From the NCBI GenBank assembly GCA_020849295.1, contig JADLGN010000015.1, positions 91,168 to 155,167 of the forward strand: DNA of 64,000 nt. The letters are read 5' to 3'. The notes under the pieces were generated by a model. That model was not told the DNA's origin. It ran no database searches and worked only from the letters and a program-made list of their open reading frames with translations. This DNA comes from Bacteroidia bacterium. Lineage in GTDB: Bacteria > Bacteroidota > Bacteroidia > NS11-12g > UBA9320. A program made the position numbers and the translations under genes. Below are positions 42,688 through 57,655 of this stretch, piece after piece; positions within the stretch are counted from its first letter, which is position 1; each line of letters opens with the position of its first letter.

Positions 42688-42719
42688 TAATTTTGCCAAA
42701 TAACTTATTTTAAAATAAG
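42688..42719 (+). promoter_or_regulatory. Candidate promoter/operator region of the reductase cluster. It contains a Bacteroidota-type -7 box TAATTTTG (42688-42695) and a perfect 16-bp palindrome CTTATTTTAAAATAAG (42704-42719) between that box and the first ATG (42751).
   Basis: The -7 box matches TAnnTTTG. The palindrome is perfect but lies in AT-rich DNA, so a chance occurrence is possible. Confidence 0.3.
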
Positions 42720-43914: not shown

Positions 43915-43954
43915 AATAAAGTAGTAGAAAAAATTAATTTTTAAAAAAAAAGCT

Positions 43955-45256: not shown

Positions 45257-45261
45257 ATAAA

Positions 45262-46686
45262 ATGAGCAAATATTATCTTGGAGTTGACCTTGGCTCCACA
45301 ACATCAAAGTCAGTAATAATAAATGAACAAGACGAGATAATTGGAAGAGGAATTACAAATACTCGTGCAAATTACTCAGTAGCCGCTGATATAGCAAGGG
45401 ATGAAGCAACCTACAATGCAAGATTTTCAATATTAAAGAAAAATCTGGAAGACGAAATAGCTTCAAAGCCTGAATACAAAAAATATATTTCTGATTTAGA
45501 AAGCGTATTTCAATATGAGCAATTCAAAATAAAATTAGATAAACTTGGGGATGAGTTGGTAAAAACATGTAATAATTTTTTTAAAGATGATACTCAAAGA
45601 AATGAAATTTTAGTACATCTTAGAAATATTCGCAAAGCCTTTAAACCAAAGATTAAACATGATTATTTATATAATAATCTTGGAGAAAAAAATCAATTTT
45701 TCAGAGATATAGTTTCCGAAAAATATAATGAAGAAGTGAACAAACTCGAAATGGCATTATTCGAGCCATTAATGACGGTATGGGACAAAAGTATTTCGCC
45801 GGCAGAAAATGAAAGAATAAAATTTGATTTTAAAGAACTTGTTCATAAAGCAATGGAAGAATTAAAAGACAAATACAAGAATTTACCTGATACTGCAGCC
45901 GAAGGAGAGAGTATAAACTTTGACGCAGAGATGAATTTGCTTAAGGGAAATTTCGATCAGGTATCAGAAACTCTTCGTTCACACATTGACCATATTGCCG
46001 AACTTGAATTTCATATTGAAAACATGACAGGAACAGGCTATGGAAGAGCATTATTGCCATTTCCACAAGAATGTATCCGCTCAGAAATTTTGTGTCATGC
46101 ATTTGGAGCACATGCTGTTTTCCCTGATACAAGAACAGTTTTAGACATTGGAGGTCAGGATACAAAGGCAATTCAGGTAGATAAATACGGGCTTGTTACA
46201 TCATTTCAGATGAATGACCGCTGTGCGGCAGGCTGTGGAAGATATTTGGGATACATTGCAGATGAAATGAGCATTTCATTAAATGAATTAGGACCAATGG
46301 CAATGGAAGCACAAAAAGAAGTTAGTATTTGTTCTACATGTACAGTATTTGCCGGAGCAGAATTAAGAGAACTTACAAATCTTGGCGAAAAAAGAGAAGA
46401 TATTTTGGGAGGTTTACACAAAGCAATTATTATGCGTGCCATGTCGCTTATTGCACGTTCAGGAGGAGTCTTTAATGAATTTACATTTACCGGAGGAGTT
46501 GCAAGAAATCCGGCTGTTATAAAATATCTTACACAGCTTGTAAGAGATAATTACGGAAGCGATATAAAAATAAATATTCATACCGATTCTATATTTATGG
46601 GAGCCTTGGGAGGTGCAATGTTTGCCAGAAGAAATATTAATGTTGATTTGCCAAATGCCAAAAAAACACAAGAAGTAACACAATAA
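45262..46686 (+). CDS. BadF/BadG/BcrA/BcrD-type ATPase, large form (BcrA/alpha-like), with an internal K/E-rich helical insertion of about 200 aa
   Basis: Phosphate-1 is YYLGVDLGSTTSKSVII. Later blocks are TGTGYGR and DIGGQDTKAI. The cluster-ligand region is NDRCAAGCGRYLGY...ICSTCTVFAGAE. Confidence 0.75.
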   Translation: MSKYYLGVDLGSTTSKSVIINEQDEIIGRGITNTRANYSVAADIARDEATYNARFSILKKNLEDEIASKPEYKKYISDLESVFQYEQFKIKLDKLGDELVKTCNNFFKDDTQRNEILVHLRNIRKAFKPKIKHDYLYNNLGEKNQFFRDIVSEKYNEEVNKLEMALFEPLMTVWDKSISPAENERIKFDFKELVHKAMEELKDKYKNLPDTAAEGESINFDAEMNLLKGNFDQVSETLRSHIDHIAELEFHIENMTGTGYGRALLPFPQECIRSEILCHAFGAHAVFPDTRTVLDIGGQDTKAIQVDKYGLVTSFQMNDRCAAGCGRYLGYIADEMSISLNELGPMAMEAQKEVSICSTCTVFAGAELRELTNLGEKREDILGGLHKAIIMRAMSLIARSGGVFNEFTFTGGVARNPAVIKYLTQLVRDNYGSDIKINIHTDSIFMGALGGAMFARRNINVDLPNAKKTQEVTQ

Positions 46687-46701
46687 ATTAAAAAAAAAAT
46701 C

Positions 46702-47538
46702 ATGGAAAATTTTTATACTATGGGTATTGACGTAGGTTCTAATTTTATAAAATTAGTACTTATGGACTATTCAGATAATCCAAAATTATTAGATAAACAT
46801 ACTGAAAAAATAAGGAAACGCGACCCATCACAAGTTGCTGAAGAAATGACTCAAAATATGCTTGCCAAGCATAAATTGAAATATGAGGATATAGCTTATT
46901 TTGCTTCTACCGGAGAAGGAGATCTTGTAAAAAGAAAAAGAGGTCATTTTTATGGAATGACAACACATGCCAAAGGAGCACATTTTTTATATTCTGATGC
47001 AATAACTGTGGTAGATATGGGTGCACTTTATGTAAGAGCAATTAAAATATCTGATGATGCAAGAGTATATGATTATAAAATGACCGGACAATGTGCCTCA
47101 GGTTCGGGGCAGTTTGTTGAAAATATTTCACGATATCTAGGTCTGTCAATTGAAGAAGTTGGCGATGTTTCAATGCAATCAAAAAATCCAGAAGTTTCTT
47201 CAGGAATTTGTGCCGTACTTGCCGAAACTGACGTAATTAATATGGTTTCAAGAGGTATATCAACACCTGATATAATAAAGGGAATTCATATTTCAATTGC
47301 CAACAGAATACTTAAACTATTGAGTTCCCTTAAAGCAGAATCGCCTATAGTAGTTACAGGAGGAATGGCATTAAACAAAGGAATGATAGAAGCACTTGAA
47401 GAACAATTGCAGGAAATGGGAAAATCTTTCCAGATTAAATCTCATCCAGATGCAATATATGCAGGTGCTATAGGAGCAGCACTTTGGGGAGGATACAGAC
47501 ATATTAAGCTAAAAGAAAAGCAAGCAGTTCTTGCATAA
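46702..47538 (+). CDS. BadF/BadG/BcrA/BcrD-type ATPase, small form (BcrD/delta- or HgdC-like activase)
   Basis: Motifs are MGIDVGSNFIKLVLMD, TGQCASGSGQFVE, SSGICAVLAETD and VVTGGMALN. The length is 278 aa. Confidence 0.8.
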   Translation: MENFYTMGIDVGSNFIKLVLMDYSDNPKLLDKHTEKIRKRDPSQVAEEMTQNMLAKHKLKYEDIAYFASTGEGDLVKRKRGHFYGMTTHAKGAHFLYSDAITVVDMGALYVRAIKISDDARVYDYKMTGQCASGSGQFVENISRYLGLSIEEVGDVSMQSKNPEVSSGICAVLAETDVINMVSRGISTPDIIKGIHISIANRILKLLSSLKAESPIVVTGGMALNKGMIEALEEQLQEMGKSFQIKSHPDAIYAGAIGAALWGGYRHIKLKEKQAVLA

Positions 47539-47599
47539 GCAATTGTTTTTATTTCATAATTAAAACAAAATTTATGAAATAATAATTTTTGATAGGATA

Positions 47600-49723
47600 A
47601 TGAGCGTACAAAATCAAACAATGAGTATTGAAACAAAAAAACATGAGTTGGATACTCTTTTTAAACCTAAATCAATAGCAATAATTGGAGCATCATCCAA
47701 AGAGCTTTCAATAGGAAATGTTATTATTAAAAATCTTGTTCATTTTAATTATACAGGGAAAATTTACCCAATAAACCCAAAAGAACCTGAAATAAGAGGA
47801 ATAAAAGCATATTCTACAATCTTTGAAGTCCCTGATGATATTGACCTAGCACACGTAATAATACCAAGCAAATTTGTGCCACAGATAATTGAGGATTGTG
47901 GAAAAAAGGGAATAAAATCAGTAATTATCAATTCTGCCGGTTTTAGCGAAATGGGTGATGAAGGTATGGCTTTACAAGAAGCATTTCTACAAAATGCAAA
48001 AAAATACGGAGTTAGAATTTTCGGACCAAATTGTCAGGGAATAATTAATTGCGACCCTGAGTATAATGCATATTGCGATTTTACATTTACATTTCCTAAT
48101 CCGGGCAGCATATCAATTGTAGCACTAAGCGGTGGTGTTGGTGCATTTATAATGCAAAGCCTTTTCGACCTTAATATAGGGATGAGAATGTATGCTTCTA
48201 ATGGTAATGCTTGCGATATTTCTATTTCTGAAGTTATAAAATACTACGGACAAGATGATGGAACTAAAGCAATTATTTTATATACCGAAGGTTTTCATAA
48301 ACCATTAGAATTTTTAAATACTGCAAAACTTGTTGCAAGAAAAAAACCAATTCTTGCAATGAAATCAGGAAGGACAGAAGCAGGAGCAAAAGCAGCAGCT
48401 TCACATACAGGAGCACTTGCAGGTATTGATATTTCTACTGAGTTAATATTTGAAAAAACAGGTGTGTTGTCATTCACAAATGAAGAAGAAATGTGTCAGG
48501 CAGCAATGGCTTTCTCTACACAACCAATTCCAAAGGGCAATAAAGTAGGTATAATTACAAATACAGGCGGACCTGCAGTAATTGCAACAGACGAACTAGT
48601 TAATTCAGGACTTGAGATTCCAGCTATATCAGCAAAAGCAGAAGAAATATTAAAAAATACATTGTTGCCTGAAGCCACAATAGGCAATCCGATTGATGTA
48701 GTTGCTACCGGCGGTGGAGTACATTTTAGAAGTGCACTTGATGTGCTGATGAATGAAAGTCAAATAGACAGTATTTTTATAAATTTTGTAACAGCACCAT
48801 TTACAGATACTGATGAGGTAGCAAGAAATATAGTAGAAGTAAATCAACTTAAGAAGAAACCAATAATTTGTAATTTTATGACAAATATGAGTTTTGAAAG
48901 ATTTCAAAAAACTGCCAAAATACTTCAGGATGGCGGTGTGCCATGTTATAGTTTTCCTACTACTGCAGCTAAAGCTCTTGGAGCATTATACAAATTTCAT
49001 AAAATTCAAAATAGAGAAATTGGCTTCCCTCAGCTTTTTAGGGATATAGACAAAAATACAGTTAAAGAAATTATTGAAAATTCAGCTATTAATGAATTTA
49101 TGTCTTCCGAGAAAGTTTTTAGTATTCTTAAAGCATACAATATTCCTATAGCAGACTGGGGAATAGCATCAAATATAGATACTGCCCATGAAATAGCATC
49201 AAAAATTTCATACCCAGTAGTAGTAAAAGCAGAGGCATCAGATATAATACACAAAAGCGATAAAGGAGGTGTGGCAGTAAATATTAAAAACCAAGCAGAA
49301 TTGATATCGACTATTGAAAATATGAAGAACAATTTTGATAATTCTGCTTTGAAATTTCTTATACAAAAATTTGAACCGGGAGGAAAAGAATTAATAATTG
49401 GAGTTACATCAAATGGAGATTTAGGGCATTTAATAATGTTTGGAATGGGAGGCATTTATGTAGAAATATTAAAAGATGTTGTTTTCAAATTAAGCCCCGT
49501 AACGCAAGTTGAAGCCGAAGAAATGCTATCAACAATTAAATCGTCAAAATTATTAGATGGAGTAAGAGGTCAACAAGGAATTGATAAAAAAAGAGTTATT
49601 GAAATAATTGAAAGGATATCTCAATTGGTAACAGATTTTCCTCAAATAAAAGAAATGGATTTAAATCCTGTAATGGCATTTTCAGATAGAGCTATTGCAG
49701 TTGATGCAAGAATTAAATTATAA
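47600..49723 (+). CDS. ADP-forming (NDP-forming) acyl-CoA synthetase with fused alpha and beta domains (CoA-binding + succinyl-CoA-synthetase-like + ATP-grasp)
   Basis: The N-terminal CoA-binding Rossmann region is SIAIIGASSKELSIGN. The CoA-ligase/flavodoxin-like middle contains a phosphohistidine loop (GAKAAASHTGALAG). The C-terminal ATP-grasp has YPVVVKAEASDIIHKSDKGGV. The length is 707 aa. Confidence 0.8.
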   Translation: MSVQNQTMSIETKKHELDTLFKPKSIAIIGASSKELSIGNVIIKNLVHFNYTGKIYPINPKEPEIRGIKAYSTIFEVPDDIDLAHVIIPSKFVPQIIEDCGKKGIKSVIINSAGFSEMGDEGMALQEAFLQNAKKYGVRIFGPNCQGIINCDPEYNAYCDFTFTFPNPGSISIVALSGGVGAFIMQSLFDLNIGMRMYASNGNACDISISEVIKYYGQDDGTKAIILYTEGFHKPLEFLNTAKLVARKKPILAMKSGRTEAGAKAAASHTGALAGIDISTELIFEKTGVLSFTNEEEMCQAAMAFSTQPIPKGNKVGIITNTGGPAVIATDELVNSGLEIPAISAKAEEILKNTLLPEATIGNPIDVVATGGGVHFRSALDVLMNESQIDSIFINFVTAPFTDTDEVARNIVEVNQLKKKPIICNFMTNMSFERFQKTAKILQDGGVPCYSFPTTAAKALGALYKFHKIQNREIGFPQLFRDIDKNTVKEIIENSAINEFMSSEKVFSILKAYNIPIADWGIASNIDTAHEIASKISYPVVVKAEASDIIHKSDKGGVAVNIKNQAELISTIENMKNNFDNSALKFLIQKFEPGGKELIIGVTSNGDLGHLIMFGMGGIYVEILKDVVFKLSPVTQVEAEEMLSTIKSSKLLDGVRGQQGIDKKRVIEIIERISQLVTDFPQIKEMDLNPVMAFSDRAIAVDARIKL

Positions 49724-49727
49724 AGAA

Positions 49728-50948
49728 ATGTATAAAATACAAAGTACAAAGGTGATGAAGGAAATAATGGGAAATTATTTCCTAGGTATGAAAGATAAAT
49801 CAAAAAAAATAGCATGGTGTACAAGCGTAGGACCAGCCGAACTTTTGCGTTCGTTTGGTTTTGAAGTACATTTTCCTGAAAATCATGGAGCATTGCTTGG
49901 TGCTACACGTACAGCAGGAGATTTAATACCCGAATCAGCAAAATTCGGTTATTCAAATGATATATGTTCTTATCTTACAGCCGATATAGGTTCATATCTG
50001 AAAAGTGAAACGCCACTTAAAGAACATTATGGTCTTGAAGGACCGCCCAAGCCCGATTTGATTGTTTATAACACAAACCAATGTAGAGAAGTACAGGATT
50101 GGTTTACATATTTTGGAAGAGAACTTAATGTGCCTGTTATCGGAATTTATCCACCAAGACATCTTGATGAAGTTACGGATGAAATAATAGAAGATGTTGC
50201 TACACAATTCAGAAAAATGATTCCGATATGCGAAGAAGTAAGCGGACAAAAATTTGATAATGATAAATTCAAAGCAACATTAAAACTAAGCAAAGAAGCA
50301 ACTGACTTATGGAAAAAAGTTCTTTATACTGCTACAAATACTCCGGCACCAATAAGCTTTTTTGATGCAACTATCCACATGGGACCTATAGTAGTTTTAC
50401 GCGGTACACAGCAAGCAAAAGACTATTATATTACATTGCTTAAAGAAATGGAAGAAAATGTAGAGAAAGGAATAGGATTTCTTGAAAAAGAAAAATGCCG
50501 ATTGTATTGGGATGGAATGCCAATTTGGGGCAAGTTGCGTTCATTATCTGACTTATTTGTTCAAAACAATACAGCAATAGTAGCTTCAACATATTGCAAT
50601 AGCTGGGTTTTTGATGCATTTGACGAAGAAAACCCATTTGAATCATCAGCTAAAGCATATACTGAAATTTTTATTAATAGAAGCGAAGAAGCTAAACAAA
50701 GACTTTTAACCGAGTTAATAGAAAAATTTAGGATAGATGGTGTGATTTTTCACGATGCTAAAACATGTGCAAACAATTCTAACTCAAGATTTGGAATGCC
50801 GCAAAGACTTACAGAATCAATAGGAATACCAACATTAATAATAGAAGGCGACCTATGTGATTTGAGATTTTATTCAGAAGGGCAAAGTATTACCAAAATT
50901 GAAACTTTTATTGAGCAAATTGAGAGTACAAAAATTTTAAGTAATTAA
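49728..50948 (+). CDS. Second BcrB/HgdA-type subunit, paralogous to 43955..45256. The ORF-track start at 49695 overlaps the upstream stop by 29 bp, so the ATG at 49728 (or 49755) is more likely the true start.
   Basis: KKIAWCTSVGPAELLRSFG and DICSYLTADIG align position-for-position with the 43955 protein. The blocks AIVASTY and TLIIEGDLCDLR are conserved. Confidence 0.7.
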   Translation: MYKIQSTKVMKEIMGNYFLGMKDKSKKIAWCTSVGPAELLRSFGFEVHFPENHGALLGATRTAGDLIPESAKFGYSNDICSYLTADIGSYLKSETPLKEHYGLEGPPKPDLIVYNTNQCREVQDWFTYFGRELNVPVIGIYPPRHLDEVTDEIIEDVATQFRKMIPICEEVSGQKFDNDKFKATLKLSKEATDLWKKVLYTATNTPAPISFFDATIHMGPIVVLRGTQQAKDYYITLLKEMEENVEKGIGFLEKEKCRLYWDGMPIWGKLRSLSDLFVQNNTAIVASTYCNSWVFDAFDEENPFESSAKAYTEIFINRSEEAKQRLLTELIEKFRIDGVIFHDAKTCANNSNSRFGMPQRLTESIGIPTLIIEGDLCDLRFYSEGQSITKIETFIEQIESTKILSN

Positions 50949-50960
50949 TATAATAAAGGT

Positions 50961-51416
50961 ATGGATACTGAAAACAAAAGTAAAGTTTATAAACTCACAG
51001 ACGGAAGTGAGGTAGATTCAAATCAAGTTGAAAAACTAATTCAGGACACATGCCATTACGTAAAATATGTTGTTATTAACCAAAATGATAAAAACGAAAA
51101 TGTAGCTTTTATTTTTCCCGATAAAAACCTTTACAACAATCCCGATTATCTTTTGGCACCTAATGACAATGAAGGTTGTTTTTGCCCACGAAACCTTGAT
51201 GAGCTTGGAAGATGTCTTACAGGGTGTATGAAAAAGGTTAATTTGAGTTTTGAAAATATTGAAGATAAATTTTCAAATGCAGTGATTTTATCAGGAGAAA
51301 ACGAAATAGAAAACGAAGTAGAAAAGTATAAGAATATTTTAAAAAATTCATTGGGGAATGAAATTTCAGATGATGAAGTATATTATATCAAAAACTTAAA
51401 GGAAAAAAAGAAGTAA
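50961..51416 (+). CDS. Hypothetical small cysteine-containing protein (C-x-C...C...C in EGCFCPRNLDELGRCLTGC)
   Basis: The 151-aa ORF is tightly packed between cluster genes (12 bp and 6 bp gaps). It has no signal peptide, and no family is recognised. Confidence 0.4.
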   Translation: MDTENKSKVYKLTDGSEVDSNQVEKLIQDTCHYVKYVVINQNDKNENVAFIFPDKNLYNNPDYLLAPNDNEGCFCPRNLDELGRCLTGCMKKVNLSFENIEDKFSNAVILSGENEIENEVEKYKNILKNSLGNEISDDEVYYIKNLKEKKK

Positions 51417-51422
51417 AAATTA

Positions 51423-53273
51423 ATGAAAAAATCATCAAAATTAAAAGTTGGTATTGTAGGAATAGGTCCGGTTGGGATGATAATGGCTGTAAAACTAAAT
51501 GAGGCAGGTTGTGAAGTGGCACTTTGCGATAAAGATGAATTTAAAGTAAAAAAAGTAAGAGAAAACGGAATAGTACTTGAAAATATTTATAATTCAACTA
51601 CAAAGTTTGAACATATTTACAATTCTGTAACAGAGATGAGAAAACTTGATTTGGATTATCTTGTTTTTGCATTAAAATCATATCAAACACTTGGAGCAGC
51701 AAAAGAAGCAGAAATTCTCAATTCTGAAAAACTTACAGTAATTGCAGCTCAAAACGGTATAGATACAGAACAAATACTTGCATCAGTTTTCGGTGAAAAT
51801 AAAACACTGAGAATGGTTATAAATTATGCAGGAAATCTTACATCGCCCAATACAGTTAAAGTAACTTTTTTTACCCCACCCAACTATATAGGTTCTATAG
51901 ACGACAGCATAACCGAACAATCAAAAATATTTACATCATTACTTAATGAAGTAAATTTTGAAACAGTTAATCTCAATTCGTTTGAAATACTAAAACGTAC
52001 TTGGGAGAAAACTATTTTGAATGCATCGTTAAGTCCACTGTGTGGGGTAGGAAGACTAACTATGGCAGAAGCAATGTCTGACCCTGAAACAGTTGAACTA
52101 GTTGAGCAAATTATAAATGAGGGAATAGAAGTAGCAGAAAGAGAAAAAATACGTTTCTCAGACGATTTTTATCGAAAATGCCTGCAATATTTAAAAAAAG
52201 GTGGAGAGCATTTCCCATCATTAGCAATAGATTTAATTAATAACCGCCAGACAGAAATTGATTATTTCAACGGAAAAATTGTAGAATATGGGAAAAAACA
52301 TTATGTAAAAACCTCATTGAATTTAGCATTTACAAACATGGTAAAAGCTATGACTAATAAAAACGTAATGAACAGGTCAATTGCTTCAGATGCAGTTTTA
52401 AACAAGAAAATAGTAAGTAAAGGTTTAATAGAAAAAAATAATTCCTCATTATATTATAAAGAGCAAAATTGTTTTCTGGGGATTGACCTTGGCTCAGCAT
52501 ATACCAAGTTTACAGTTATAAATGCAAAAGGGAAACCCGTATTCAGGTACTTTGTTCACACAATGAACAAAGACAGAAATGCTATGAAAAATGTAATTCA
52601 GGCTATATATTCAACATTTAATATTAAATACAGTTGCGCTACAGGTTATGGCAGAAAACACTTTACTGATACAGATATTATTAAAACCGAAATAAACTGT
52701 GCAGCTGCAGGAGTTGCAGAATATCACGATGGTGAAAAAAACATAATAGATATCGGTGGCGAAGATATAAAGGTTATACATTGTAATAATGATAATCAGG
52801 TTGCAAATTTTTACATGAATGATAAGTGTGCTGCCGGTACAGGTGCATTTTTACAGGAAATATCAGAAAGAGCAGAAATTAAAATTGAAGATATGAGCAG
52901 CCTTGCTTCACATTCTGATTTCGACAAAGAATTAAACAGCTTTTGTACTGTTTTTGCAAAAACTGAAATTATGAATTGGGTTTTTGACGGAATGCCAATG
53001 CAAGATATTGCAAGAGGTATTTATATATCAATAGCCAATAAAGTAGCAAAAATGAGATTAATACCGGGTTTGCCAATTATTATGATTGGTGGTGTAATTG
53101 CGCATCATCCTTATATGAGTACAATACTAAGCCAGAAATTTAATAAGGATATTAAAACCATTGAACACCCTCAGTTTGTTGTGTCACTTGGTGCTGCTAT
53201 AATTGCAAAACAAACATGGGCAAACGCAAATGAAAAAATTGATTTAAATAAAGAGATTAAACTACCAGCATAA
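51423..53273 (+). CDS. Fusion protein: an N-terminal ketopantoate-reductase-like (ApbA/PanE family) NAD(P)-binding 2-oxoacid reductase domain joined to a C-terminal BadF/BcrA/HgdC-type ATPase (activase) domain
   Basis: N-terminus: KVGIVGIGPVGMIMAVKLNEAGCEVALCD (Rossmann GxGxxG). The ApbA-like middle and C-terminal helical domain carry SLAIDLINNRQTEIDYFNG (ApbA E/N substrate block). C-terminal half from about aa 345: CFLGIDLGSAYTKFTVI, DIGGEDIKVI, DKCAAGTGAFLQEISE, NSFCTVFAKTEI. Confidence 0.7.
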   Translation: MKKSSKLKVGIVGIGPVGMIMAVKLNEAGCEVALCDKDEFKVKKVRENGIVLENIYNSTTKFEHIYNSVTEMRKLDLDYLVFALKSYQTLGAAKEAEILNSEKLTVIAAQNGIDTEQILASVFGENKTLRMVINYAGNLTSPNTVKVTFFTPPNYIGSIDDSITEQSKIFTSLLNEVNFETVNLNSFEILKRTWEKTILNASLSPLCGVGRLTMAEAMSDPETVELVEQIINEGIEVAEREKIRFSDDFYRKCLQYLKKGGEHFPSLAIDLINNRQTEIDYFNGKIVEYGKKHYVKTSLNLAFTNMVKAMTNKNVMNRSIASDAVLNKKIVSKGLIEKNNSSLYYKEQNCFLGIDLGSAYTKFTVINAKGKPVFRYFVHTMNKDRNAMKNVIQAIYSTFNIKYSCATGYGRKHFTDTDIIKTEINCAAAGVAEYHDGEKNIIDIGGEDIKVIHCNNDNQVANFYMNDKCAAGTGAFLQEISERAEIKIEDMSSLASHSDFDKELNSFCTVFAKTEIMNWVFDGMPMQDIARGIYISIANKVAKMRLIPGLPIIMIGGVIAHHPYMSTILSQKFNKDIKTIEHPQFVVSLGAAIIAKQTWANANEKIDLNKEIKLPA

Positions 53274-53280
53274 AAATATA

Positions 53281-54543
53281 ATGAGAGCATTTCACGACAA
53301 AGAAAAAGGTATAGGTATAATATTCGATGATATTTATTTTGTTAACGGAGCAAGAACTCCGTTTGGAAAATATTGCGGAACACTTGCAAATGTATCGCCT
53401 ACAGATTTAGGAATTTTTGCCAGTAAAGCAGCAATTAATAAAAGTAATATTTCAGCAGATAAAATTGACCAGGCAGTTATGGCAAATATTGGTCAGTCTT
53501 CAGGCGATGCATATTTTTTCCCTCGTCATGTTTCATTATTTGCAGGATTGCCGGTTACTGTACCTGCACTTATGGTTCAAAGAATATGTGCATCCGGATT
53601 TGAAACTATAATTACTTCTGCCGAGCAGATTACACTTGGCAAAGCCGATTCAACACTATGCTGCGGTGCAGAAAGTATGTCACTTTCACCAACCGTAAGT
53701 TTTGGCAACAGAATGGGTTATATGCTTGGTCGCCCTGTTTTTAAAGATATGCTTTGGGAAGCTTTAGACGATACCGCAGCAGGTTATCCAATGGGTTTTA
53801 CAGCAGAAAATATTGCAGTAAAGCACAATATTAGCAGGCAACAGTGTGACGAATATGCTCTAATATCTTTTAACAGAGCTATTGCAGCAAGAAACAAAGG
53901 ATTTTTTAATGAAGAAATTACACCTATCAATTCTACGGTATTTGAAGCAGATGGTTTAAAATCACGAAAAGTTAAACTAACTGGAGGAGTAAAAGATTTT
54001 AATATTGACGAACAAATAAGAGAAACCACATTAGAATCATTGTCAAAATTGCCAAATGTATTTAAAGAAGTAGGAGTACTGTCAGCTGGTAATTGCAGTG
54101 GCATTGTTGATGGAGCAGCAGCAGCAGTTGTAGCATCTGATAGTTTTGTAAAATCAAATAATTTAAAACCCCTTGCAAAAGTGGTAGCCGCTGCAACAAG
54201 TGCAATAGACCCTAAAGTAATGGGGCTGGGTCCGGTACCTGCTATTAAATATTTATTGGAAATTACAGGTTTAAAAATTGATGATATCGGATTGTTTGAG
54301 ATTAATGAAGCATTTTCATCACAGGTAATAGGCTGCGAAATAGAATTAGGACTTGATAGGAATAAACTTAATGTAAATGGTGGTGCAATTGCTATCGGAC
54401 ATCCGCTTGCAGCAAGCGGCTTAAGACTTTCGCTAACACTTATTAGAGAAATGAATCAAAAAAATATAAAATACGGAATTGCTTCTGCTTGTATAGGTGG
54501 CGGACAAGGTACAGCAATTCTTTTTGAAAATTTAAATAATTAA
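53281..54543 (+). CDS. Acetyl-CoA C-acyltransferase (thiolase)
   Basis: NGARTPFGKY with the active-site Cys in RICASGFETI, the motifs NEAFSSQV and GHPLAASG, and the C-terminal CIGGGQGTA are present. Confidence 0.9.
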   Translation: MRAFHDKEKGIGIIFDDIYFVNGARTPFGKYCGTLANVSPTDLGIFASKAAINKSNISADKIDQAVMANIGQSSGDAYFFPRHVSLFAGLPVTVPALMVQRICASGFETIITSAEQITLGKADSTLCCGAESMSLSPTVSFGNRMGYMLGRPVFKDMLWEALDDTAAGYPMGFTAENIAVKHNISRQQCDEYALISFNRAIAARNKGFFNEEITPINSTVFEADGLKSRKVKLTGGVKDFNIDEQIRETTLESLSKLPNVFKEVGVLSAGNCSGIVDGAAAAVVASDSFVKSNNLKPLAKVVAAATSAIDPKVMGLGPVPAIKYLLEITGLKIDDIGLFEINEAFSSQVIGCEIELGLDRNKLNVNGGAIAIGHPLAASGLRLSLTLIREMNQKNIKYGIASACIGGGQGTAILFENLNN

Positions 54544-54547
54544 AAAA

Positions 54548-54727
54548 ATGGAAATCACAGATAAAATTTTAAATCAATTTGCAAAATCTGGCAAAGCACT
54601 AAAAGGTGGCGAAATAGCCGATCTTACAGGTATTGATAAAAAACTAGTAGATAAAACCTTAAAGAAATTGATGAGTGAAGATAAAATATATTCGCCTGTA
54701 AGGTGCTATTACGATTTAAAAAAATAA
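54548..54727 (+). CDS. Unannotated 59-aa ORF (below the 60-aa cutoff of the ORF track) with winged-helix/HTH-like sequence: MEITDKILNQFAKSGKALKGGEIADLTGIDKKLVDKTLKKLMSEDKIYSPVRCYYDLKK
   Basis: Its ATG lies 4 bp after the thiolase stop, and its stop lies 3 bp before the next ATG, which is operon-tight packing. An HTH-like segment (GEIADLTGIDKKLVDKTLKKL) is followed by a beta-hairpin-like tail. Confidence 0.45.
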   Translation: MEITDKILNQFAKSGKALKGGEIADLTGIDKKLVDKTLKKLMSEDKIYSPVRCYYDLKK

Positions 54728-54730
54728 TAA

Positions 54731-55789
54731 ATGCAAAATACTAAAATGTATAAATGGGAAATGATAGAAACTGACAAAGATTTTGTCAGAAAAGAATGTG
54801 ATATTCCTGAAATTGAAGAAAATGAAGCAATAGTAAAAGTTGCAGGATGTGGTGTGTGTCATACAGATTTAAGTTTTTGGCATTTTGGAGTACAAACCAA
54901 AAAATCTTTACCCCTTACTTTAGGACACGAAATAAGCGGAACAGTTGTAGTAGGAGATAGTAGTATTATTGGAAAAAATGTAATTATACCTGCTGTATTG
55001 CCTTGTGGCAACTGCGAATTGTGTAATAATGGAAGAAGTAATATTTGTCGCAATCAACTTATGCCCGGTAATGATTTTGACGGAGGATTTGCATCTCATA
55101 TCAAAGTACCATCAAAATATTTGTGTGAAGTAGATAATGAAATATTGAAAAAATACCCATTAGAAACACTTTCTGTAATTGCTGATGCTATTTCTACACC
55201 TTATCAGGTTGTAAAAAAATCAGAATTGAAAGAAGGAGATTTTGCTATTGTGATTGGAGTGGGCGGTGTAGGAATTTACGGGGCACAAATAGCAAAAATA
55301 TTTGGAGCAAAAGTTCTTGCAATGGATATTAGTGATGAAAAACTAAATGTTGCAAAAGAAAATGGAACAGATGCAGTTTTGAACATAAAAGGAATGGATA
55401 TAAAAACTGTAAAAGAAAATGTTAAAAATATTGCTAAAGAACTTAATGCACCAAAAAATAGTTGGAAAATTTATGAAATATCGGGAACCAAAGCAGGCCA
55501 AGAACTCGCTTTTAATCTTATAACTTTTGCTTCTACATTATCAGTTGTAGGTTTTACAATGGATAAAGTAGATGTAAGACTTAGTAATCTTATGGCATTT
55601 GATGCAAAATTGATTGGCACTTGGGGATGTAAGCCAGAACTATACCCTGAAGTTGTTAAATTGGTATCAGACGGTAAATTAAAAATTGAACCTTTTATTC
55701 AAACATTTCCCTTGTCTCAAATTAATGAAGTATTTAAAAACACATTAGAACATAAATATTCAAAGCGCTCAGTACTTATTCCCGATTAA
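54731..55789 (+). CDS. Zinc-dependent medium-chain dehydrogenase/reductase (ADH_N + Rossmann), a candidate beta-hydroxyacyl-CoA / 6-hydroxycyclohexenoyl-CoA-type dehydrogenase (Had-like)
   Basis: Catalytic Zn ligands are present (GCGVCHTDL, GHE in TLGHEISG). Structural Zn cysteines are CGNCELCNNGRSNIC. The Rossmann motif is VIGVGGVGIYG. Confidence 0.85.
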   Translation: MQNTKMYKWEMIETDKDFVRKECDIPEIEENEAIVKVAGCGVCHTDLSFWHFGVQTKKSLPLTLGHEISGTVVVGDSSIIGKNVIIPAVLPCGNCELCNNGRSNICRNQLMPGNDFDGGFASHIKVPSKYLCEVDNEILKKYPLETLSVIADAISTPYQVVKKSELKEGDFAIVIGVGGVGIYGAQIAKIFGAKVLAMDISDEKLNVAKENGTDAVLNIKGMDIKTVKENVKNIAKELNAPKNSWKIYEISGTKAGQELAFNLITFASTLSVVGFTMDKVDVRLSNLMAFDAKLIGTWGCKPELYPEVVKLVSDGKLKIEPFIQTFPLSQINEVFKNTLEHKYSKRSVLIPD

Positions 55790-55799
55790 TAAAAAAAAT

Positions 55800-56882
55800 A
55801 TGCTTAAAAACCACAATATAACAGAAGTTTCTTATAAAGAAATACTATTCGAAAAAAGACCATGTCTAGATAAAAACGGACAGGCAATAGATGGATTATA
55901 CAACTCATGGATTTGCTTAAATAATCCAAAACAATACAACTCCTACACAACACAAGCTGTAAAAGAAATTATTCTTGCTTTTGGCGAAGCTTCAAACGAT
56001 CGCAGTATAGTTGCAGTTGTTTTTACGGCGGTAGAAGATAAAGCATTTTGTACAGGAGGCAATACAAAAGAATATGCAGAGTATTACTCTGGCAATCCGC
56101 AAGAATACAGCCAGTATATGCGACTATTTAATGACATGGTAAGTGCAATATTAAAATGCGAAAAACCTGTAATTTGCAGAGTAAACGGCATGAGAATAGG
56201 AGGAGGACAGGAAATAGGTATGGCTTGCGATTATACTATATCAAGTGATTTGGCTAGATTTGGTCAGGCAGGACCAAAACATGGTAGTGCAGCAATAGGC
56301 GGTGCTACAGATTTTCTTCATCTATATGTAGGTATAGAAAGAGCAATGATGTCATTAACACTTTGTGAACCTTGGACTGCTCATCAGGCATACAATTTTG
56401 GAATGATAACTGATATTGTACCTGCTCTTAAGCTTGACGGTAAATTTATACCCAACCCATTGGTAGTTTTAGATAAACAAACAGATGAGTTTGGAAAAAT
56501 AGTTTTTGGTACAATGAAAAAAGGTGATGAATTGAAAGCCGGAAAAGAAATAATGGAAAAATCGGAAATAGATTTATCAGAACTTGACAAAGCTGTAAAT
56601 AATCTTATTGCAAAACTTCTTTATACGTTCCCTAATTGTTTATCAAAAACTCTTACAGAAGTAAGAAAGAAAAAACTTGAGCATTGGGATAAAAATAAAG
56701 AAAGCAGCCGCGAATGGCTTGCTCTAAATATGATGACTGAAGCAAAAGCAGGGTTTAGAGCATTTAATTTTGGGCCAAAAGACAACAGAGAAGTTGATTT
56801 TATACTTTTAAGGCAACTTCTTGCCGAGGGTCATGAATGGAATGAAGAACTTCATCAAAAAATTTCACCTCAATATAAATAA
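55800..56882 (+). CDS. Crotonase-fold (enoyl-CoA hydratase/isomerase superfamily) protein, long form of 360 aa. It is a candidate ring-cleaving 6-oxocyclohexenoyl-CoA hydrolase (Oah/BamA-like).
   Basis: The oxyanion-hole blocks are AFCTGGNTKEY and ICRVNGMRIGGGQEIGMACDYTISS. Its length matches the approximately 370-380 aa Oah class rather than 260-aa hydratases. Confidence 0.7.
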   Translation: MLKNHNITEVSYKEILFEKRPCLDKNGQAIDGLYNSWICLNNPKQYNSYTTQAVKEIILAFGEASNDRSIVAVVFTAVEDKAFCTGGNTKEYAEYYSGNPQEYSQYMRLFNDMVSAILKCEKPVICRVNGMRIGGGQEIGMACDYTISSDLARFGQAGPKHGSAAIGGATDFLHLYVGIERAMMSLTLCEPWTAHQAYNFGMITDIVPALKLDGKFIPNPLVVLDKQTDEFGKIVFGTMKKGDELKAGKEIMEKSEIDLSELDKAVNNLIAKLLYTFPNCLSKTLTEVRKKKLEHWDKNKESSREWLALNMMTEAKAGFRAFNFGPKDNREVDFILLRQLLAEGHEWNEELHQKISPQYK

Positions 56883-57655
56883 TGGAAAAAATAAAAGTTA
56901 ATTATTTGTATGAAAATACTGTAGTTCAAATTGTGATGGACGATGGTAAAGGTAATATTTTGGATTCTGTAATGATGAAAGAACTAACAAACTTACTTGA
57001 TAGTTTTAAAACAAATAATAATCTGAAATTAATAATTTTTGAAGGAGCAGGCAAACACTATTCGTTTGGTGCAAGTGTAGAAGAGCATAAAAAAGACGAA
57101 GCTGCTCAAATGCTTAAATCATTTCATAACTTATTTTATTTGTTAATAGAATTGTCAATTCCAACCTTATCAAAAGTTAGTGGACAGTGCCTTGGAGGAG
57201 GAATGGAACTTGCCATTATGTGCAATTTTATTTATGCTGATAATACAGCAAAATTAGGACAACCCGAAATTGTTCTCGGAGTTTTTCCACCCCCTGCTTC
57301 ACTTATTTTACCTCAAAAAATTGGTCAAGCTCAAGCTGATGAATTATTATTGACAGGTAAATCAATAAACGCACAACAAGCAAAATCAATAAATTTAATT
57401 AATGAAATTTTTGAAAGCAAAGAAGAACTTCAAAATGGGTTAAACTCATTTATTGAAAATCAAATTTTACCAAAAAGTGCTTCATCACTACGTTTTGCAG
57501 TAAAAGCAGCAAGAAAAACTTTTAATAAAATATTGCTTGAAAATCTCCCTCAATTAGAAGAAATGTATGTTTCACAATTGATGAACACCAATGATGCTAA
57601 TGAAGGTATAAATTCTTTTCTCGAAAAACGCAAACCTGTTTGGGTTGGATCGTAG
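56882..57655 (+). CDS. Enoyl-CoA hydratase (crotonase family, canonical about 260 aa); Dch-like candidate
   Basis: IIFEGAGKHYSFGASVEEH and SKVSGQCLGGGMELAIMCNFIYA match the crotonase A-x-x-G-x-D and GGG-x-E motifs. The start overlaps the upstream stop by 1 bp. Confidence 0.8.
   Translation: MEKIKVNYLYENTVVQIVMDDGKGNILDSVMMKELTNLLDSFKTNNNLKLIIFEGAGKHYSFGASVEEHKKDEAAQMLKSFHNLFYLLIELSIPTLSKVSGQCLGGGMELAIMCNFIYADNTAKLGQPEIVLGVFPPPASLILPQKIGQAQADELLLTGKSINAQQAKSINLINEIFESKEELQNGLNSFIENQILPKSASSLRFAVKAARKTFNKILLENLPQLEEMYVSQLMNTNDANEGINSFLEKRKPVWVGS

What the first reader, a model, noticed from the sequence alone, without database searches (positions are those of the whole stretch)
54548..54727. 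Unannotated 59-codon winged-helix-like ORF wedged between the thiolase and dehydrogenase genes
An ATG lies 4 bp after the thiolase stop. It opens a 59-codon frame that ends 3 bp before the next gene's ATG. Such tight packing in a coding-dense operon argues that it is translated, although its 59 codons put it just below the 60-aa threshold. The sequence GEIADLTGIDKKLVDKTLKKLMSEDKI reads like a helix-turn-helix recognition helix followed by a wing (YSPVRCYY). It may be a small pathway regulator or a DNA-binding or acyl-carrier-like accessory protein.
Basis: seen in the sequence. Interest (0 to 1): 0.55.

Follow-up and report, generated by a model that had tools for sequence, protein, structure and literature searches.

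The report
Conserved mini winged-helix gene in benzoyl-CoA operon
The 59-codon frame between the thiolase and dehydrogenase genes is a real gene for a tiny winged-helix protein from a very large, uncharacterised family of anaerobe proteins, and it sits unusually inside an aromatic-degradation operon, but nothing shows that it regulates that pathway.

Summary
The ORF at 54548-54727 (+) exists exactly as described: 4 nt after the thiolase stop and 3 nt before the next ATG. It is a genuine protein-coding gene. An identical protein is already in NCBI, over-named 'MarR family regulator'. Homologues of 57-59 codons occur in 86 of 86 related loci. dN/dS is 0.10-0.26.

It belongs to a family of at least 7,688 protein clusters, found in Bacteroidales, Chlorobi, Clostridia, Aquificota and Fusobacteriota. 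AlphaFold gives a canonical winged helix (pLDDT 90.6). The closest folds are Zalpha domains (TM 0.89), but the Z-DNA-specifying Asn and Tyr are Asp and Lys.

The family hallmark is a basic recognition helix plus a wing motif S-P-x-R-C with one almost invariant cysteine. The only named relative is 'PscE' (CT1067) of the green-sulfur-bacterial reaction centre (E=1e-25), and that assignment looks doubtful.

Family members are normally free-standing with unrelated neighbours. Only one small Bacteroidia clade has the gene inside the benzoyl-CoA operon (bcrCBAD...thiolase|ORF|had-oah-dch).

Function is untested. I favour nucleic-acid binding through helix 3 and the wing (0.45) over a DsrD-like protein-binding accessory role (0.33). 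The proposed 16-bp palindrome is at chance frequency. The acyl-carrier idea is rejected.

The parts
54548..54727 (+). Small gene: 59 codons plus TAA. Product is MEITDKILNQFAKSGKALKGGEIADLTGIDKKLVDKTLKKLMSEDKIYSPVRCYYDLKK, a stand-alone mini winged-helix protein of the PscE-like / SPxRC family.
   Evidence: sequence; homologues; dN/dS 0.10-0.26; AF2 pLDDT 90.6; 7ueb_E: E=1e-25 with the profile, 6e-10 with the single sequence
54554..54589 (+). Helix 1 (residues 3-14)
   Evidence: DSSP on the model
54605..54628 (+). Helix 2 (residues 20-27; G21, A24 and G28 are at least 90% conserved)
54638..54676 (+). Helix 3, the 'recognition' helix (residues 31-43). K31, K32, V34, K36, K39 and L41 are 90-99% conserved and D35 is 73% D. 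K31/K32/K36 align with Zalpha K169/K170/R174. D35 and K39 replace Zalpha N173 and Y177.
54692..54706 (+). Wing motif S49-P50-V51-R52-C53 (family S 98%, P 99%, K 86%, R 87%, C 99%). It holds the single cysteine of the protein.
53281..54543 (+). Upstream gene: acetyl-CoA C-acyltransferase (thiolase), whose stop lies 4 nt before the small gene
   Evidence: TIGR01930 397 bits, above cut-off
54731..55789 (+). Downstream gene: 6-hydroxycyclohex-1-ene-1-carbonyl-CoA dehydrogenase (Had), whose first ATG lies 3 nt after the small gene's stop
   Evidence: TIGR03201 461 bits, cut-off 339
55800..57655 (+). oah (6-oxocyclohex-1-ene-1-carbonyl-CoA hydrolase, 55800-56882) and a dch-like dienoyl-CoA hydratase (56882-57655)
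   Evidence: TIGR03200 589 bits, above cut-off; TIGR03189 221 bits, best hit but below cut-off
42751..47538 (+). bcrC, bcrB, bcrA, bcrD: class I (Thauera/bcr-type) ATP-dependent benzoyl-CoA reductase at the start of the same tightly packed operon
   Evidence: TIGR02263, TIGR02260 and TIGR02261 above cut-off; TIGR02259 best hit but below cut-off; gaps
47600..53273 (+). Middle of the operon: ADP-forming acyl-CoA synthetase (707 aa), HgdB/BcrB-like protein, orf151 (no family), and an ApbA-like reductase fused to a BcrAD/HgdC-type activase (616 aa)

Best explanation
SHOWN: 54548-54727 is a real gene under purifying selection. It lies within a 13-gene run (42751-57655) of same-strand, closely spaced benzoyl-CoA degradation genes (gaps <=61 nt), which implies co-transcription. 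Its 59-aa product is a complete, stand-alone winged-helix domain. It belongs to a very large chromosomal family seen here in anaerobic and microaerophilic lineages. The family is defined by a basic, nearly invariant exposed face of helix 3 (K31, K32, D35, K36, K39) and a wing motif S-P-x-R-C with one near-invariant cysteine. INFERRED mechanism: the conserved helix-3/wing face is the working surface. It is the same face that Zalpha domains use to grip a nucleic-acid backbone. Five of the backbone-contact positions are kept or conservatively replaced (K169/K170/R174 to K31/K32/K36 by alignment; T191/P192 to S49/P50 by register). I therefore think the protein binds nucleic acid (DNA or structured RNA) as a small, low-sequence-specificity or structure-specific binder, not through a palindromic operator. 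In most genomes it is a free-standing general factor. In this Bacteroidia clade the gene has been captured between the thiolase and had, so its dose follows operon transcription and could give feedback on expression of the pathway. C53 is predicted by analogy to Zalpha W195/Y177 to sit next to K39 on that face, and is a plausible redox switch of binding. No step of the mechanism has been tested.
For: Gene reality. Peptides of the family member CT1067 were detected by mass spectrometry, at 58% coverage (supplement of PMC9529944). Fold: AF2 pLDDT 90.6 with winged-helix topology. The Foldseek top hits are nucleic-acid-bound Zalpha domains of ZBP1, PKZ and ORF112 (TM 0.82-0.89, rmsd 1.0-1.5) followed by MarR/ArsR/IclR DNA-binding domains. 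Sequence: the family profile matches ZBP1 Zalpha at E about 1e-6 and ADAR1 Zalpha at E=1e-5, with K31/K32/K36 on K169/K170/R174. Mean family net charge is +3.2 and the window protein is +4. The most conserved residues lie on helix 3 and the wing. General-factor reading: neighbours are heterogeneous, no neighbour is conserved across phyla, and the family is absent from plasmids and phages. Operon capture: the position thiolase|ORF|had is kept in the window, L010, L007 and L022. The closest free-standing relative (L004, 69% identity) lies 1.7-7 kb from had (75.6% identical), apbA and acs homologues.
Against: There is no DNA- or RNA-binding experiment for any family member. The residues that define Zalpha function (N173, Y177, W195) are replaced by D35, K39 and C53 (for the first two; W195 by register only). 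A conserved acidic residue sits in the middle of helix 3. Lys is strictly preferred over Arg at positions 32, 36 and 39, and S-P-x-R-C is near-invariant. That looks more like a stereospecific interface than generic phosphate binding. The protein has no dimerisation or effector domain. The in-operon clade has replaced three otherwise charged, conserved positions with hydrophobic residues (E33 to L/I/V, K42 to M/L, K51 to V), which weakens a DNA-binding face and suits a protein interface. The only experimental sighting of a family member is in a protein complex (7UEB). DsrD shows that a Zalpha-like winged helix encoded within a redox-enzyme operon can be an enzyme activator that binds DNA only non-specifically (PMC8794893). 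A mid-operon position with 3-4 nt gaps is more typical of enzyme subunits than of regulators.
Confidence: 0.45

Rival explanations
1. Protein-binding accessory factor, working like DsrD. The winged helix does not act on nucleic acid. It docks through its conserved helix-3/wing face, including C53, onto an oxygen-sensitive low-potential redox enzyme or its electron donor. Here that would be the benzoyl-CoA reductase, the HgdB-like/activase system or a ferredoxin, and the factor would stabilise or allosterically activate it. The operon position would give near-stoichiometric co-expression.
For: The gene sits mid-operon with 4-nt and 3-nt gaps, conserved in four lineages. The in-operon clade carries hydrophobic replacements at three conserved charged surface positions. 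The conservation of K36, S49, P50 and C53 is strict and stereospecific. DsrD is a precedent: a Zalpha-like winged helix encoded with dsrAB that is an allosteric activator (PMC8794893). The family member CT1067 was detected in, and modelled into, the reaction-centre/FMO complex (7UEB). Rpa2 and MCM winged-helix domains, which mediate protein contacts, are among the structural and Pfam neighbours. Some contexts are redox or Fe-S related: IscU/IscS in Persephonella, rubrerythrin plus Fur in Haliovirga, and a rubredoxin fusion in P0093.
Against: Most family members are free-standing with unrelated neighbours, so no common protein partner is suggested. DsrD is not detectably homologous (E=0.068). 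The PscE assignment is weak. Its MS signal is about 1000-fold below that of true subunits, and the deposited chain does not resemble the confident winged-helix prediction. The redox-flavoured contexts are a minority and were not tested statistically.
Confidence: 0.33
2. Dedicated, autoregulated transcription factor of the benzoyl-CoA operon. It would bind an operator such as the 42704-42719 palindrome 32 nt upstream of bcrC and repress or activate the operon.
For: The fold is a winged helix. The gene lies in the operon it would control. A perfect 16-bp palindrome lies just upstream of bcrC. Known benzoyl-CoA regulators include winged-helix proteins such as BadR (MarR-type) and BadM (Rrf2-type); this rests on my own knowledge and was not tested here.
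Against: The protein has no effector-binding or dimerisation domain in its 59 aa. The recognition-helix face is nearly identical in thousands of homologues from genomes where the gene is not next to this operon. The palindrome is at chance frequency (4 observed, 3.4 expected) and is absent near the free-standing homologues. The protein fails the MarR and Rrf2 thresholds.
Confidence: 0.15
3. Not a gene: a chance open frame in an AT-rich intergenic spacer.
For: It is short (59 codons) and AT-rich, and there is no expression data for this organism.
Against: The protein is conserved in unlinked genomic contexts across several phyla with fixed length. dN/dS is 0.10-0.26. The fold prediction is confident. 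Peptides were detected for a homologue.
Confidence: 0.01

Closest known systems
'PscE' = CT1067 / UniProt Q8KDI3 of Chlorobaculum tepidum (PDB 7UEB chain E; Puskar et al. 2022, PMC9529944)
   Same: It is a true family member. It has 59 aa and 41% identity to the window protein (phmmer E=6e-10; family profile E=1e-25). It shares the K-K-x-V-D-K helix 3 and the S-P-K-R-C wing motif. Its orthologue is predicted to have the same winged-helix fold.
   Different: It is reported as a membrane-associated subunit that links PscC and FMO in a photosynthetic reaction centre. The window organism's gene sits in a benzoyl-CoA operon. Chlorobium orthologues lie between methylglyoxal synthase and a hydantoinase gene, not with photosynthesis genes. 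The assignment itself is doubtful: MS abundance is about 1e6 against about 1e9 for PscD, and the deposited chain is not retrieved by Foldseek with a 95%-identical AF2 model. No function has been demonstrated.
Zalpha Z-DNA/Z-RNA-binding domains (ZBP1/DLM-1, ADAR1, PKZ, CyHV-3 ORF112; Pfam PF02295)
   Same: They are the best structural matches (TM 0.82-0.89, rmsd 1.0-1.5 A over 54-58 residues). They share the minimal a1-b1-a2-a3-b2-b3 topology and a similar size. The profile matches at E about 1e-6 and 1e-5. The basic contacts K169/K170/R174 align with K31/K32/K36, and T191/P192 correspond to S49/P50 by register.
   Different: The residues that confer Z-conformation recognition are not kept: N173 is D35 and Y177 is K39, and W195 is C53 by register only. 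The window protein has no PF02295 hit, and only 9 of 32 relatives have sub-threshold hits. It is a bacterial, stand-alone, single-domain protein. Published searches for bacterial Zalpha-like folds describe ArsR proteins, not this family (PMC11293857).
DsrD (dissimilatory sulfite reductase D; Ferreira et al. 2022, PMC8794893)
   Same: It works in a similar setting. It is a small Zalpha-like winged-helix protein encoded inside an operon for an anaerobic redox enzyme. It was long presumed to be a DNA-binding regulator.
   Different: It is not detectably homologous (hhalign E=0.068, probability 0.8%, using a DsrD sequence recalled from memory). It has 78 aa and no SPxRC motif. It is shown to be an allosteric activator of DsrAB with only non-specific DNA binding. 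Nothing comparable has been tested here.
MarR-family regulators (the public annotation of the identical protein; includes BadR of Rhodopseudomonas palustris)
   Same: They share the winged helix-turn-helix core. Sub-threshold MarR_2 hits occur in 20 of 32 relatives.
   Different: MarR proteins have about 140-170 aa, with N- and C-terminal helices that form the dimer and the ligand pocket. This protein is only the 59-aa core and scores below every Pfam and NCBIfam cut-off. The public name is an over-annotation.

Membership tests
PscE-like / 'SPxRC' mini winged-helix family (uncurated; no Pfam or NCBIfam model) | Stand-alone protein of 57-60 aa that aligns end to end with family members | tested here: met
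   59 aa. It aligns over residues 1-59 with 59-aa homologues. Length is 57-59 codons in 86 of 86 loci.
PscE-like / 'SPxRC' mini winged-helix family (uncurated; no Pfam or NCBIfam model) | Wing motif S-P-x-R-C-[FY]-[YW] with a single Cys, plus helix-3 residues K32, K36, K39 and L41 | tested here: met
   S49, P50, R52, C53, Y54, Y55, K32, K36, K39 and L41 are all present. Family frequencies are 87-99%.
PscE-like / 'SPxRC' mini winged-helix family (uncurated; no Pfam or NCBIfam model) | Significant sequence similarity to the named member 7ueb_E | tested here: met
   phmmer E=6.3e-10; family profile E=9.6e-26.
PscE as a reaction-centre subunit (functional class) | Association with a type-I photosynthetic reaction centre / FMO complex | tested here: not met
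   No reaction-centre or FMO gene was seen among the window ORFs that were scanned (38825-62744). The family is widespread in non-phototrophs.
Zalpha domain (PF02295) | a1-b1-a2-a3-b2-b3 winged-helix fold of about 60-70 aa | tested here: met
   AF2 topology. Foldseek TM 0.89 and rmsd 1.3 A to 9j8g_A, and TM 0.86 to 1j75_A.
Zalpha domain (PF02295) | Conserved Asn173 and Tyr177 in helix 3 and Trp195 in the wing (ADAR1 numbering), needed for Z-DNA/Z-RNA recognition | tested here: not met
   hhalign places D35 on N173 and K39 on Y177. C53 occupies the Trp position by register; this is inferred, because the alignment did not extend that far.
Zalpha domain (PF02295) | Score above the Pfam gathering threshold | tested here: not met
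   No PF02295 hit for the window protein at E<=0.1. The best hit among 32 relatives is E=5e-4, sub-threshold.
MarR family (PF01047 / PF12802) | About 140-170 aa, with the wHTH flanked by dimerisation helices; score above the Pfam threshold | tested here: not met
   59 aa. No MarR hit for the window protein at E<=0.1. The only hit at E<=0.01 is HTH_5 at 16.5 bits against a cut-off of 22.
Rrf2 family (for example BadM, IscR; PF02082) | About 140-160 aa, with a wHTH plus a dimerisation helix and often three Cys ligands for an Fe-S cluster | tested here: not met
   Only sub-threshold hits in relatives (best 4.8e-6 in 20 of 32). There is one Cys and the protein has 59 aa.
DsrD (PF08679) | Sequence homology to DsrD and linkage to dsrAB | tested here: not met
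   hhalign E=0.068. No dsr gene was seen among the window ORFs that were scanned.
Acyl carrier protein (PF00550) | Four-helix bundle with a phosphopantetheine-attachment Ser (DSL motif) | tested here: not met
   No PP-binding hit at E<=0.1. The model has three helices plus a beta wing. There is no DSL motif in the sequence.
Sequence-specific operon repressor (functional class) | Binds a conserved operator in its own operon's promoter | not testable with these tools
   The palindrome 42704-42719 exists but is at chance frequency.

The most novel reading that the evidence does not exclude
The SPxRC mini winged-helix family is a previously unrecognised, anaerobe-wide thiol-based accessory or switch protein for low-potential, oxygen-sensitive Fe-S enzyme systems. 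Its invariant Cys53 would be activated by the neighbouring invariant lysines on the helix-3/wing face, and would sense or transmit redox state while the domain docks on a partner complex. That partner would be benzoyl-CoA reductase in this Bacteroidia clade and the reaction centre/ferredoxin side in Chlorobi. In this reading the in-operon copy is a DsrD-like activator or protector of ATP-dependent benzoyl-CoA reduction rather than a DNA-binding regulator.
Probability: 0.12. Interest if true: 0.75.

Novelty: new member of a known kind. Interest (0 to 1): 0.38.

Why it matters
The family comprises thousands of sequence clusters across major anaerobic phyla, including human-gut Firmicutes and Bacteroidales. 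It has no curated model. Its database names contradict one another (MarR, ArsR, GntR, Rrf2, IclR, MCM, TFIIE). No function has been tested. This locus is one of very few places where the gene is locked into a defined metabolic operon, so it offers a concrete handle for experiments: does it bind the operon's DNA or RNA, or the oxygen-sensitive benzoyl-CoA reductase? The work also shows that 'PscE', treated in recent structural and simulation papers as a small membrane subunit of the green-sulfur-bacterial reaction centre, belongs to this soluble, ubiquitous winged-helix family. That calls for re-examination of the cryo-EM assignment. If the ORF is just a small generic nucleic-acid binder that happens to sit in the operon, the finding is ordinary.

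Tried and rejected
1. Pfam and NCBIfam scans of the protein and of 32 relatives gave only sub-threshold, generic winged-helix hits (HTH_5, HTH_11, TrmB, Rrf2, MarR_2, ORF80). No specific family was found.
2. A search for a conserved gene neighbour used 86 Bacteroidales/Chlorobi/Clostridia loci and 80 gut or rumen metagenome loci. The commonest neighbour (2-oxoacid:ferredoxin oxidoreductase, 13 loci) comes from one closely related clade (KorA 83-100% identical). It therefore reflects synteny by descent, not functional linkage. In the gut subfamily the commonest real neighbour is a 68-aa Cys-rich ORF that is specific to that clade.
3. DsrD homology was rejected.
4. The palindrome as operator is at chance frequency and is not shared with the homologues' loci.
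5. Sigma-70 promoter and terminator scans around the ORF gave counts equal to shuffled controls. These models are also unsuited to Bacteroidota.
6. A mobile-element origin was tested: no tblastn hit in 72,556 plasmids or 50,697 phages.
7. No second copy is present in the window.
8. No RNA element is present: there are no Rfam hits.
9. A first attempt to scan genomes with the diverse alignment A1 failed because no stretch was conserved enough. It was repeated with the narrower alignment A2.
Full report
OBSERVATION. The window reads ...AAT TAA AAAA ATG GAA... at 54538-54553. The 420-aa ORF 53281-54543 ends, four A's follow, and an ATG at 54548 opens 59 sense codons that end with TAA at 54725-54727. 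A second TAA follows, and then the ATG of the 352-aa ORF 54731-55789. The peptide is MEITDKILNQFAKSGKALKGGEIADLTGIDKKLVDKTLKKLMSEDKIYSPVRCYYDLKK.

SURROUNDINGS. The ORF lies in a run of 13 same-strand genes (42751-57655) with gaps of 61 nt or less and uniform composition. GC3 is 0.16-0.24 across the run and 0.22 for the small ORF.
- bcrC, bcrB and bcrD pass NCBIfam equivalog cut-offs, and bcrA is the best hit for its ORF.
- Next come an ADP-forming acyl-CoA synthetase, an HgdB/BcrB-like protein, a 151-aa ORF without family, and an ApbA-like reductase fused to a BcrAD/HgdC-type activase.
- Then come a thiolase (TIGR01930), the small ORF, Had (TIGR03201, 461 bits against a cut-off of 339) and Oah (TIGR03200, 589 bits against 464).
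- The last gene is a Dch-like hydratase.
This is a class I (bcr-type) anaerobic benzoyl-CoA pathway operon in a genome region of 31% G+C. Public metadata for the identical small protein assign it to a Bacteroidia MAG.

IS IT A GENE? Yes.
- An identical 59-aa protein is in NCBI (named 'MarR family transcriptional regulator [Bacteroidia bacterium]'). Seven further 59-aa proteins are 64-92% identical.
- An exhaustive HMMER scan of 1.84 billion representatives found 241 relatives at E<=1e-3, most of them 57-61 aa. The longer ones carry what look like junk N- or C-terminal extensions from mis-called ends.
- A profile search found at least 7,688 clusters at 90% identity.
- In 86 related loci the frame is 57-59 codons without exception.
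- Nei-Gojobori dN/dS is 0.10-0.26 between the window, L010, L007, L004 and L001, with dS up to about 2.
- The protein is conserved in genomic contexts that share nothing else with this operon. That excludes conservation of a non-coding spacer.
- Peptides of the C. tepidum family member CT1067 were seen by mass spectrometry at 58% coverage (supplementary table of PMC9529944).
- No Rfam family matches anywhere in the window.

WHAT IS IT? AlphaFold2 with a 32-sequence alignment gives mean pLDDT 90.6. The model has H3-14, a short strand at 18-19, H20-27, H31-43, a strand at 47-48 and a strand at 54-57. This is the minimal winged helix.

Foldseek against the PDB ranks Zalpha domains first: ZBP1 9j8g_A (TM 0.89, rmsd 1.3 A), DLM-1 1j75_A, PKZ and ORF112. 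The Rpa2 winged helix follows, and then many MarR/ArsR/IclR/DtxR DNA-binding domains. A family profile also matches ZBP1 Zalpha by sequence (E about 1e-6) and ADAR1 Zalpha (hhalign E=1e-5).

The hhalign register puts K31, K32 and K36 on the backbone-contacting K169, K170 and R174. It puts D35 on N173 and K39 on Y177. By register, S49-P50 correspond to T191-P192 and C53 to W195; this last step is my inference, because the alignment stops before the wing. The fold and part of the contact surface are therefore Zalpha-like, but the residues that define Z-DNA/Z-RNA recognition are not present. I do not file the protein as a Zalpha domain.

Pfam and NCBIfam give only sub-threshold generic winged-helix hits. 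The names that sources give to relatives are mutually inconsistent: MarR, ArsR, GntR, Rrf2, IclR, biotin repressor, MCM, TFIIE. The 'MarR' label is an over-annotation, because the protein is only the 59-aa core without the dimerisation helices.

FAMILY SIGNATURE. In 172 distinct family sequences the most conserved positions are these:
- L41, P50 and C53: 99%.
- S49: 98%. K36: 97%.
- A24, G28, K32 and K39: 93%. V34: 92%. K31 and G21: 90%.
- R52: 87%. K51: 86%.
Net charge averages +3.2, and 166 of 172 proteins have exactly one cysteine. The conserved residues cluster on the helix-3 face at positions 32, 35, 36 and 39, which I take to be solvent-exposed from helical periodicity (no coordinates were available), and on the wing S-P-x-R-C. 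In Zalpha and most winged-helix proteins this is the ligand-binding face.

THE ONLY NAMED RELATIVE. The PDB sequence search gives one strong hit: 7UEB chain E, 'PscE', 59 aa. The profile E-value is 9.6e-26 and the single-sequence E-value is 6.3e-10, at 41% identity. Puskar et al. 2022 built UniProt Q8KDI3 (CT1067) de novo into density next to PscC and the second FMO trimer. They called it a helix-turn-helix 'membrane subunit' and noted its 39% charged residues (PMC9529944). A 2026 simulation paper treats it as a small membrane protein (PMC13220206).

Four observations make me cautious about that assignment.
- An AF2 model of a 95%-identical Chlorobaculum orthologue is the same soluble winged helix (pLDDT 83.5).
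- Foldseek with that model, and with the window model, does not return 7ueb_E among the top 50. That would be impossible if the deposited chain had this fold.
- The MS abundance of CT1067 in the preparation is about 1e6, against about 1e9 for PscD.
- The family is ubiquitous in non-phototrophs. In Chlorobium luteolum the gene sits between methylglyoxal synthase and a hydantoinase gene.
The homology is solid. The functional transfer from 'PscE' is not.

DISTRIBUTION AND CONTEXT. Relatives occur in Bacteroidales, Tenuifilaceae, Marinilabiliales, Chlorobiota, Persephonella (Aquificota), Haliovirga (Fusobacteriota), Spirochaetota, KSB1, Clostridia, and abundantly in human-gut and rumen metagenomes. 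All named hosts that I saw belong to lineages I know as anaerobic or microaerophilic; this was not tested statistically. None is on a plasmid or phage in the collections searched.

Neighbours are heterogeneous:
- an OmpA/PD40 gene (divergent), with an alpha/beta hydrolase downstream in one lineage;
- a tyrosine recombinase in Tenuifilum;
- IscU and a cysteine desulfurase in Persephonella;
- rubrerythrin and Fur in Haliovirga;
- SSB in a Chlorobi MAG;
- ribonucleotide reductase and DUF2284 in a Firmicutes MAG;
- LemA and a peptidase;
- WbqC, an EEP nuclease and cyclophilin in Alistipes.
Clustering the neighbours across 86 loci gave no partner shared across phyla. The top cluster (2-oxoacid:ferredoxin oxidoreductase, 13 loci) comes from one clade with 83-100% identical KorA, so it is inherited synteny. 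Most copies are separated from their neighbours by more than 30 nt, or face them convergently or divergently.

THE IN-OPERON CLADE. The arrangement thiolase|ORF|had is found in the window, L010 (92% identity), L007 (78%) and L022 (MAG_48, 73%). It occurs in only 1 of 80 species-representative genomes that carry a relative. No second locus from the MAG_48 assembly appeared among the 80 kept loci. The in-operon copy may therefore be that genome's only copy, although a MAG cannot prove this.

The closest free-standing relative (L004, 69% identity) lies 1.7-7 kb from an opposite-strand acs-apbA-had trio. Its Had is 75.6% identical to the window's. Physical proximity to these genes may therefore predate the fusion into one operon.

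The seven sequences of this clade share derived replacements at positions that are otherwise charged and conserved:
- position 33 is L, I or V (family: E or D);
- position 42 is M or L (family: K 79%);
- position 51 is V (family: K 86%).
Context is verified for four of the seven sequences.

MECHANISM (inferred). The family evidence points to a universal ligand bound by the helix-3/wing face. The evidence is a winged-helix fold, basic charge, conserved Zalpha-type backbone-contact residues, free-standing genes and no conserved protein-coding partner. I judge nucleic acid the most likely ligand (0.45). Binding would have low sequence specificity or be structure-specific, because the binding face hardly varies among thousands of homologues. 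In this clade the protein's dose would follow operon transcription.

The main rival (0.33) is a DsrD-like protein-binding accessory role. It is favoured by the mid-operon position with 3-4 nt gaps, the clade-specific hydrophobic replacements on the putative binding face, and the strict Lys/Ser/Pro/Cys conservation. It is also favoured by the DsrD precedent: a Zalpha-like winged helix long presumed to bind DNA that is actually an allosteric activator of DsrAB (PMC8794893).

A dedicated operator-binding repressor (0.15) is least supported. There is no effector or dimerisation module. The proposed palindrome CTTATTTTAAAATAAG (42704-42719, 32 nt before bcrC) is one of four perfect 16-bp palindromes in the window, against 3.4 expected in composition-matched simulations. 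It is also absent from the homologues' loci. A chance ORF is excluded.

COMPARISON AND NOVELTY. The gene is a new member, in a new genomic setting, of an existing but uncurated and functionally unknown family. An identical protein is already deposited. It is not a MarR, Rrf2, Zalpha, DsrD or ACP family member by the tests listed. What is mildly new is threefold. First, the family's signature, size and spread are now defined. Second, 'PscE' belongs to it. Third, one Bacteroidia clade has fixed the gene inside a benzoyl-CoA operon, with clade-specific surface changes. I score interest at 0.38. This is a solid and useful annotation result with one testable open question (DNA or RNA binder versus enzyme accessory), not a surprising new system.

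Noticed in passing
PDB 7UEB chain E (relative of window 54548-54727); models mfa07bac7b91b and m03a958b858cd: The green-sulfur-bacterial reaction-centre 'subunit' PscE (CT1067/Q8KDI3) is a member of this ubiquitous soluble winged-helix family. A 95%-identical orthologue is predicted as a winged helix, yet the deposited chain is not retrieved by Foldseek. Its MS signal in the preparation was about 1000-fold below that of PscD. The cryo-EM assignment as a 'membrane subunit' looks questionable.
   Followed up: partly
window 42751-57655: A complete bcr-type (class I, ATP-dependent) benzoyl-CoA pathway operon sits in a 31% G+C Bacteroidia genome. It has an ADP-forming (NDP-forming) acyl-CoA synthetase (47600-49723). 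None of the 13 operon ORFs matches an AMP-forming benzoate-CoA ligase or a ferredoxin family.
   Followed up: partly
window 49695-53273: A second BCR/2-hydroxyacyl-CoA-dehydratase-like module lies inside the operon. It comprises an HgdB/BcrB-like protein (its TTG start overlaps acs by 29 nt, and a relative is called 399 aa, so the true start is probably later), a 151-aa ORF with no family and four cysteines (including a CFC pair), and an unusual 616-aa fusion of an ApbA/ketopantoate-reductase-like domain to a BcrAD/HgdC-type activase ATPase.
   Followed up: no
L022 8713-9768 (MAG_48): In the most distant in-operon relative, a KorA-like 2-oxoacid:ferredoxin oxidoreductase gene lies between oah and dch. 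This recalls the ferredoxin-regenerating KGOR of the Thauera pathway. The window has no such gene.
   Followed up: partly
L004 753-5013 and 8001-8180: The closest free-standing homologue (69% identity) lies 1.7-7 kb from an opposite-strand acs-apbA-had trio. Its Had is 75.6% identical to the window's, which suggests old physical linkage before the operon fusion.
   Followed up: partly
window 54644-54646, 54671-54673, 54698-54700 (codons 33, 42, 51): The in-operon clade replaces three conserved charged residues with hydrophobic ones: E/D33 to L/I/V, K42 to M/L, and K51 to V. This combination was not seen in the other 165 family sequences examined.
   Followed up: partly
L102-L181 (gut and rumen metagenome loci), for example L123 2981-3187: In the gut-Firmicutes subfamily ('SPVRCKW'), a 68-aa ORF with a C-x3-C-x2-C-x2-C motif and no Pfam family lies about 160 nt upstream on the same strand in 25 of 80 loci.
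   Followed up: no
protein P0093 (representative library): One relative is a fusion of a rubredoxin domain to the N-terminus of the mini winged helix. Haliovirga has rubrerythrin and Fur immediately downstream, and Persephonella has IscU and IscS on either side. This is a possible redox or Fe-S theme that was not tested statistically.
   Followed up: no
window 42704-42719: A perfect 16-bp palindrome, CTTATTTTAAAATAAG, lies 32 nt upstream of bcrC. Perfect 16-bp palindromes occur 4 times in the window against 3.4 expected, so it carries no statistical weight by itself.
   Followed up: yes
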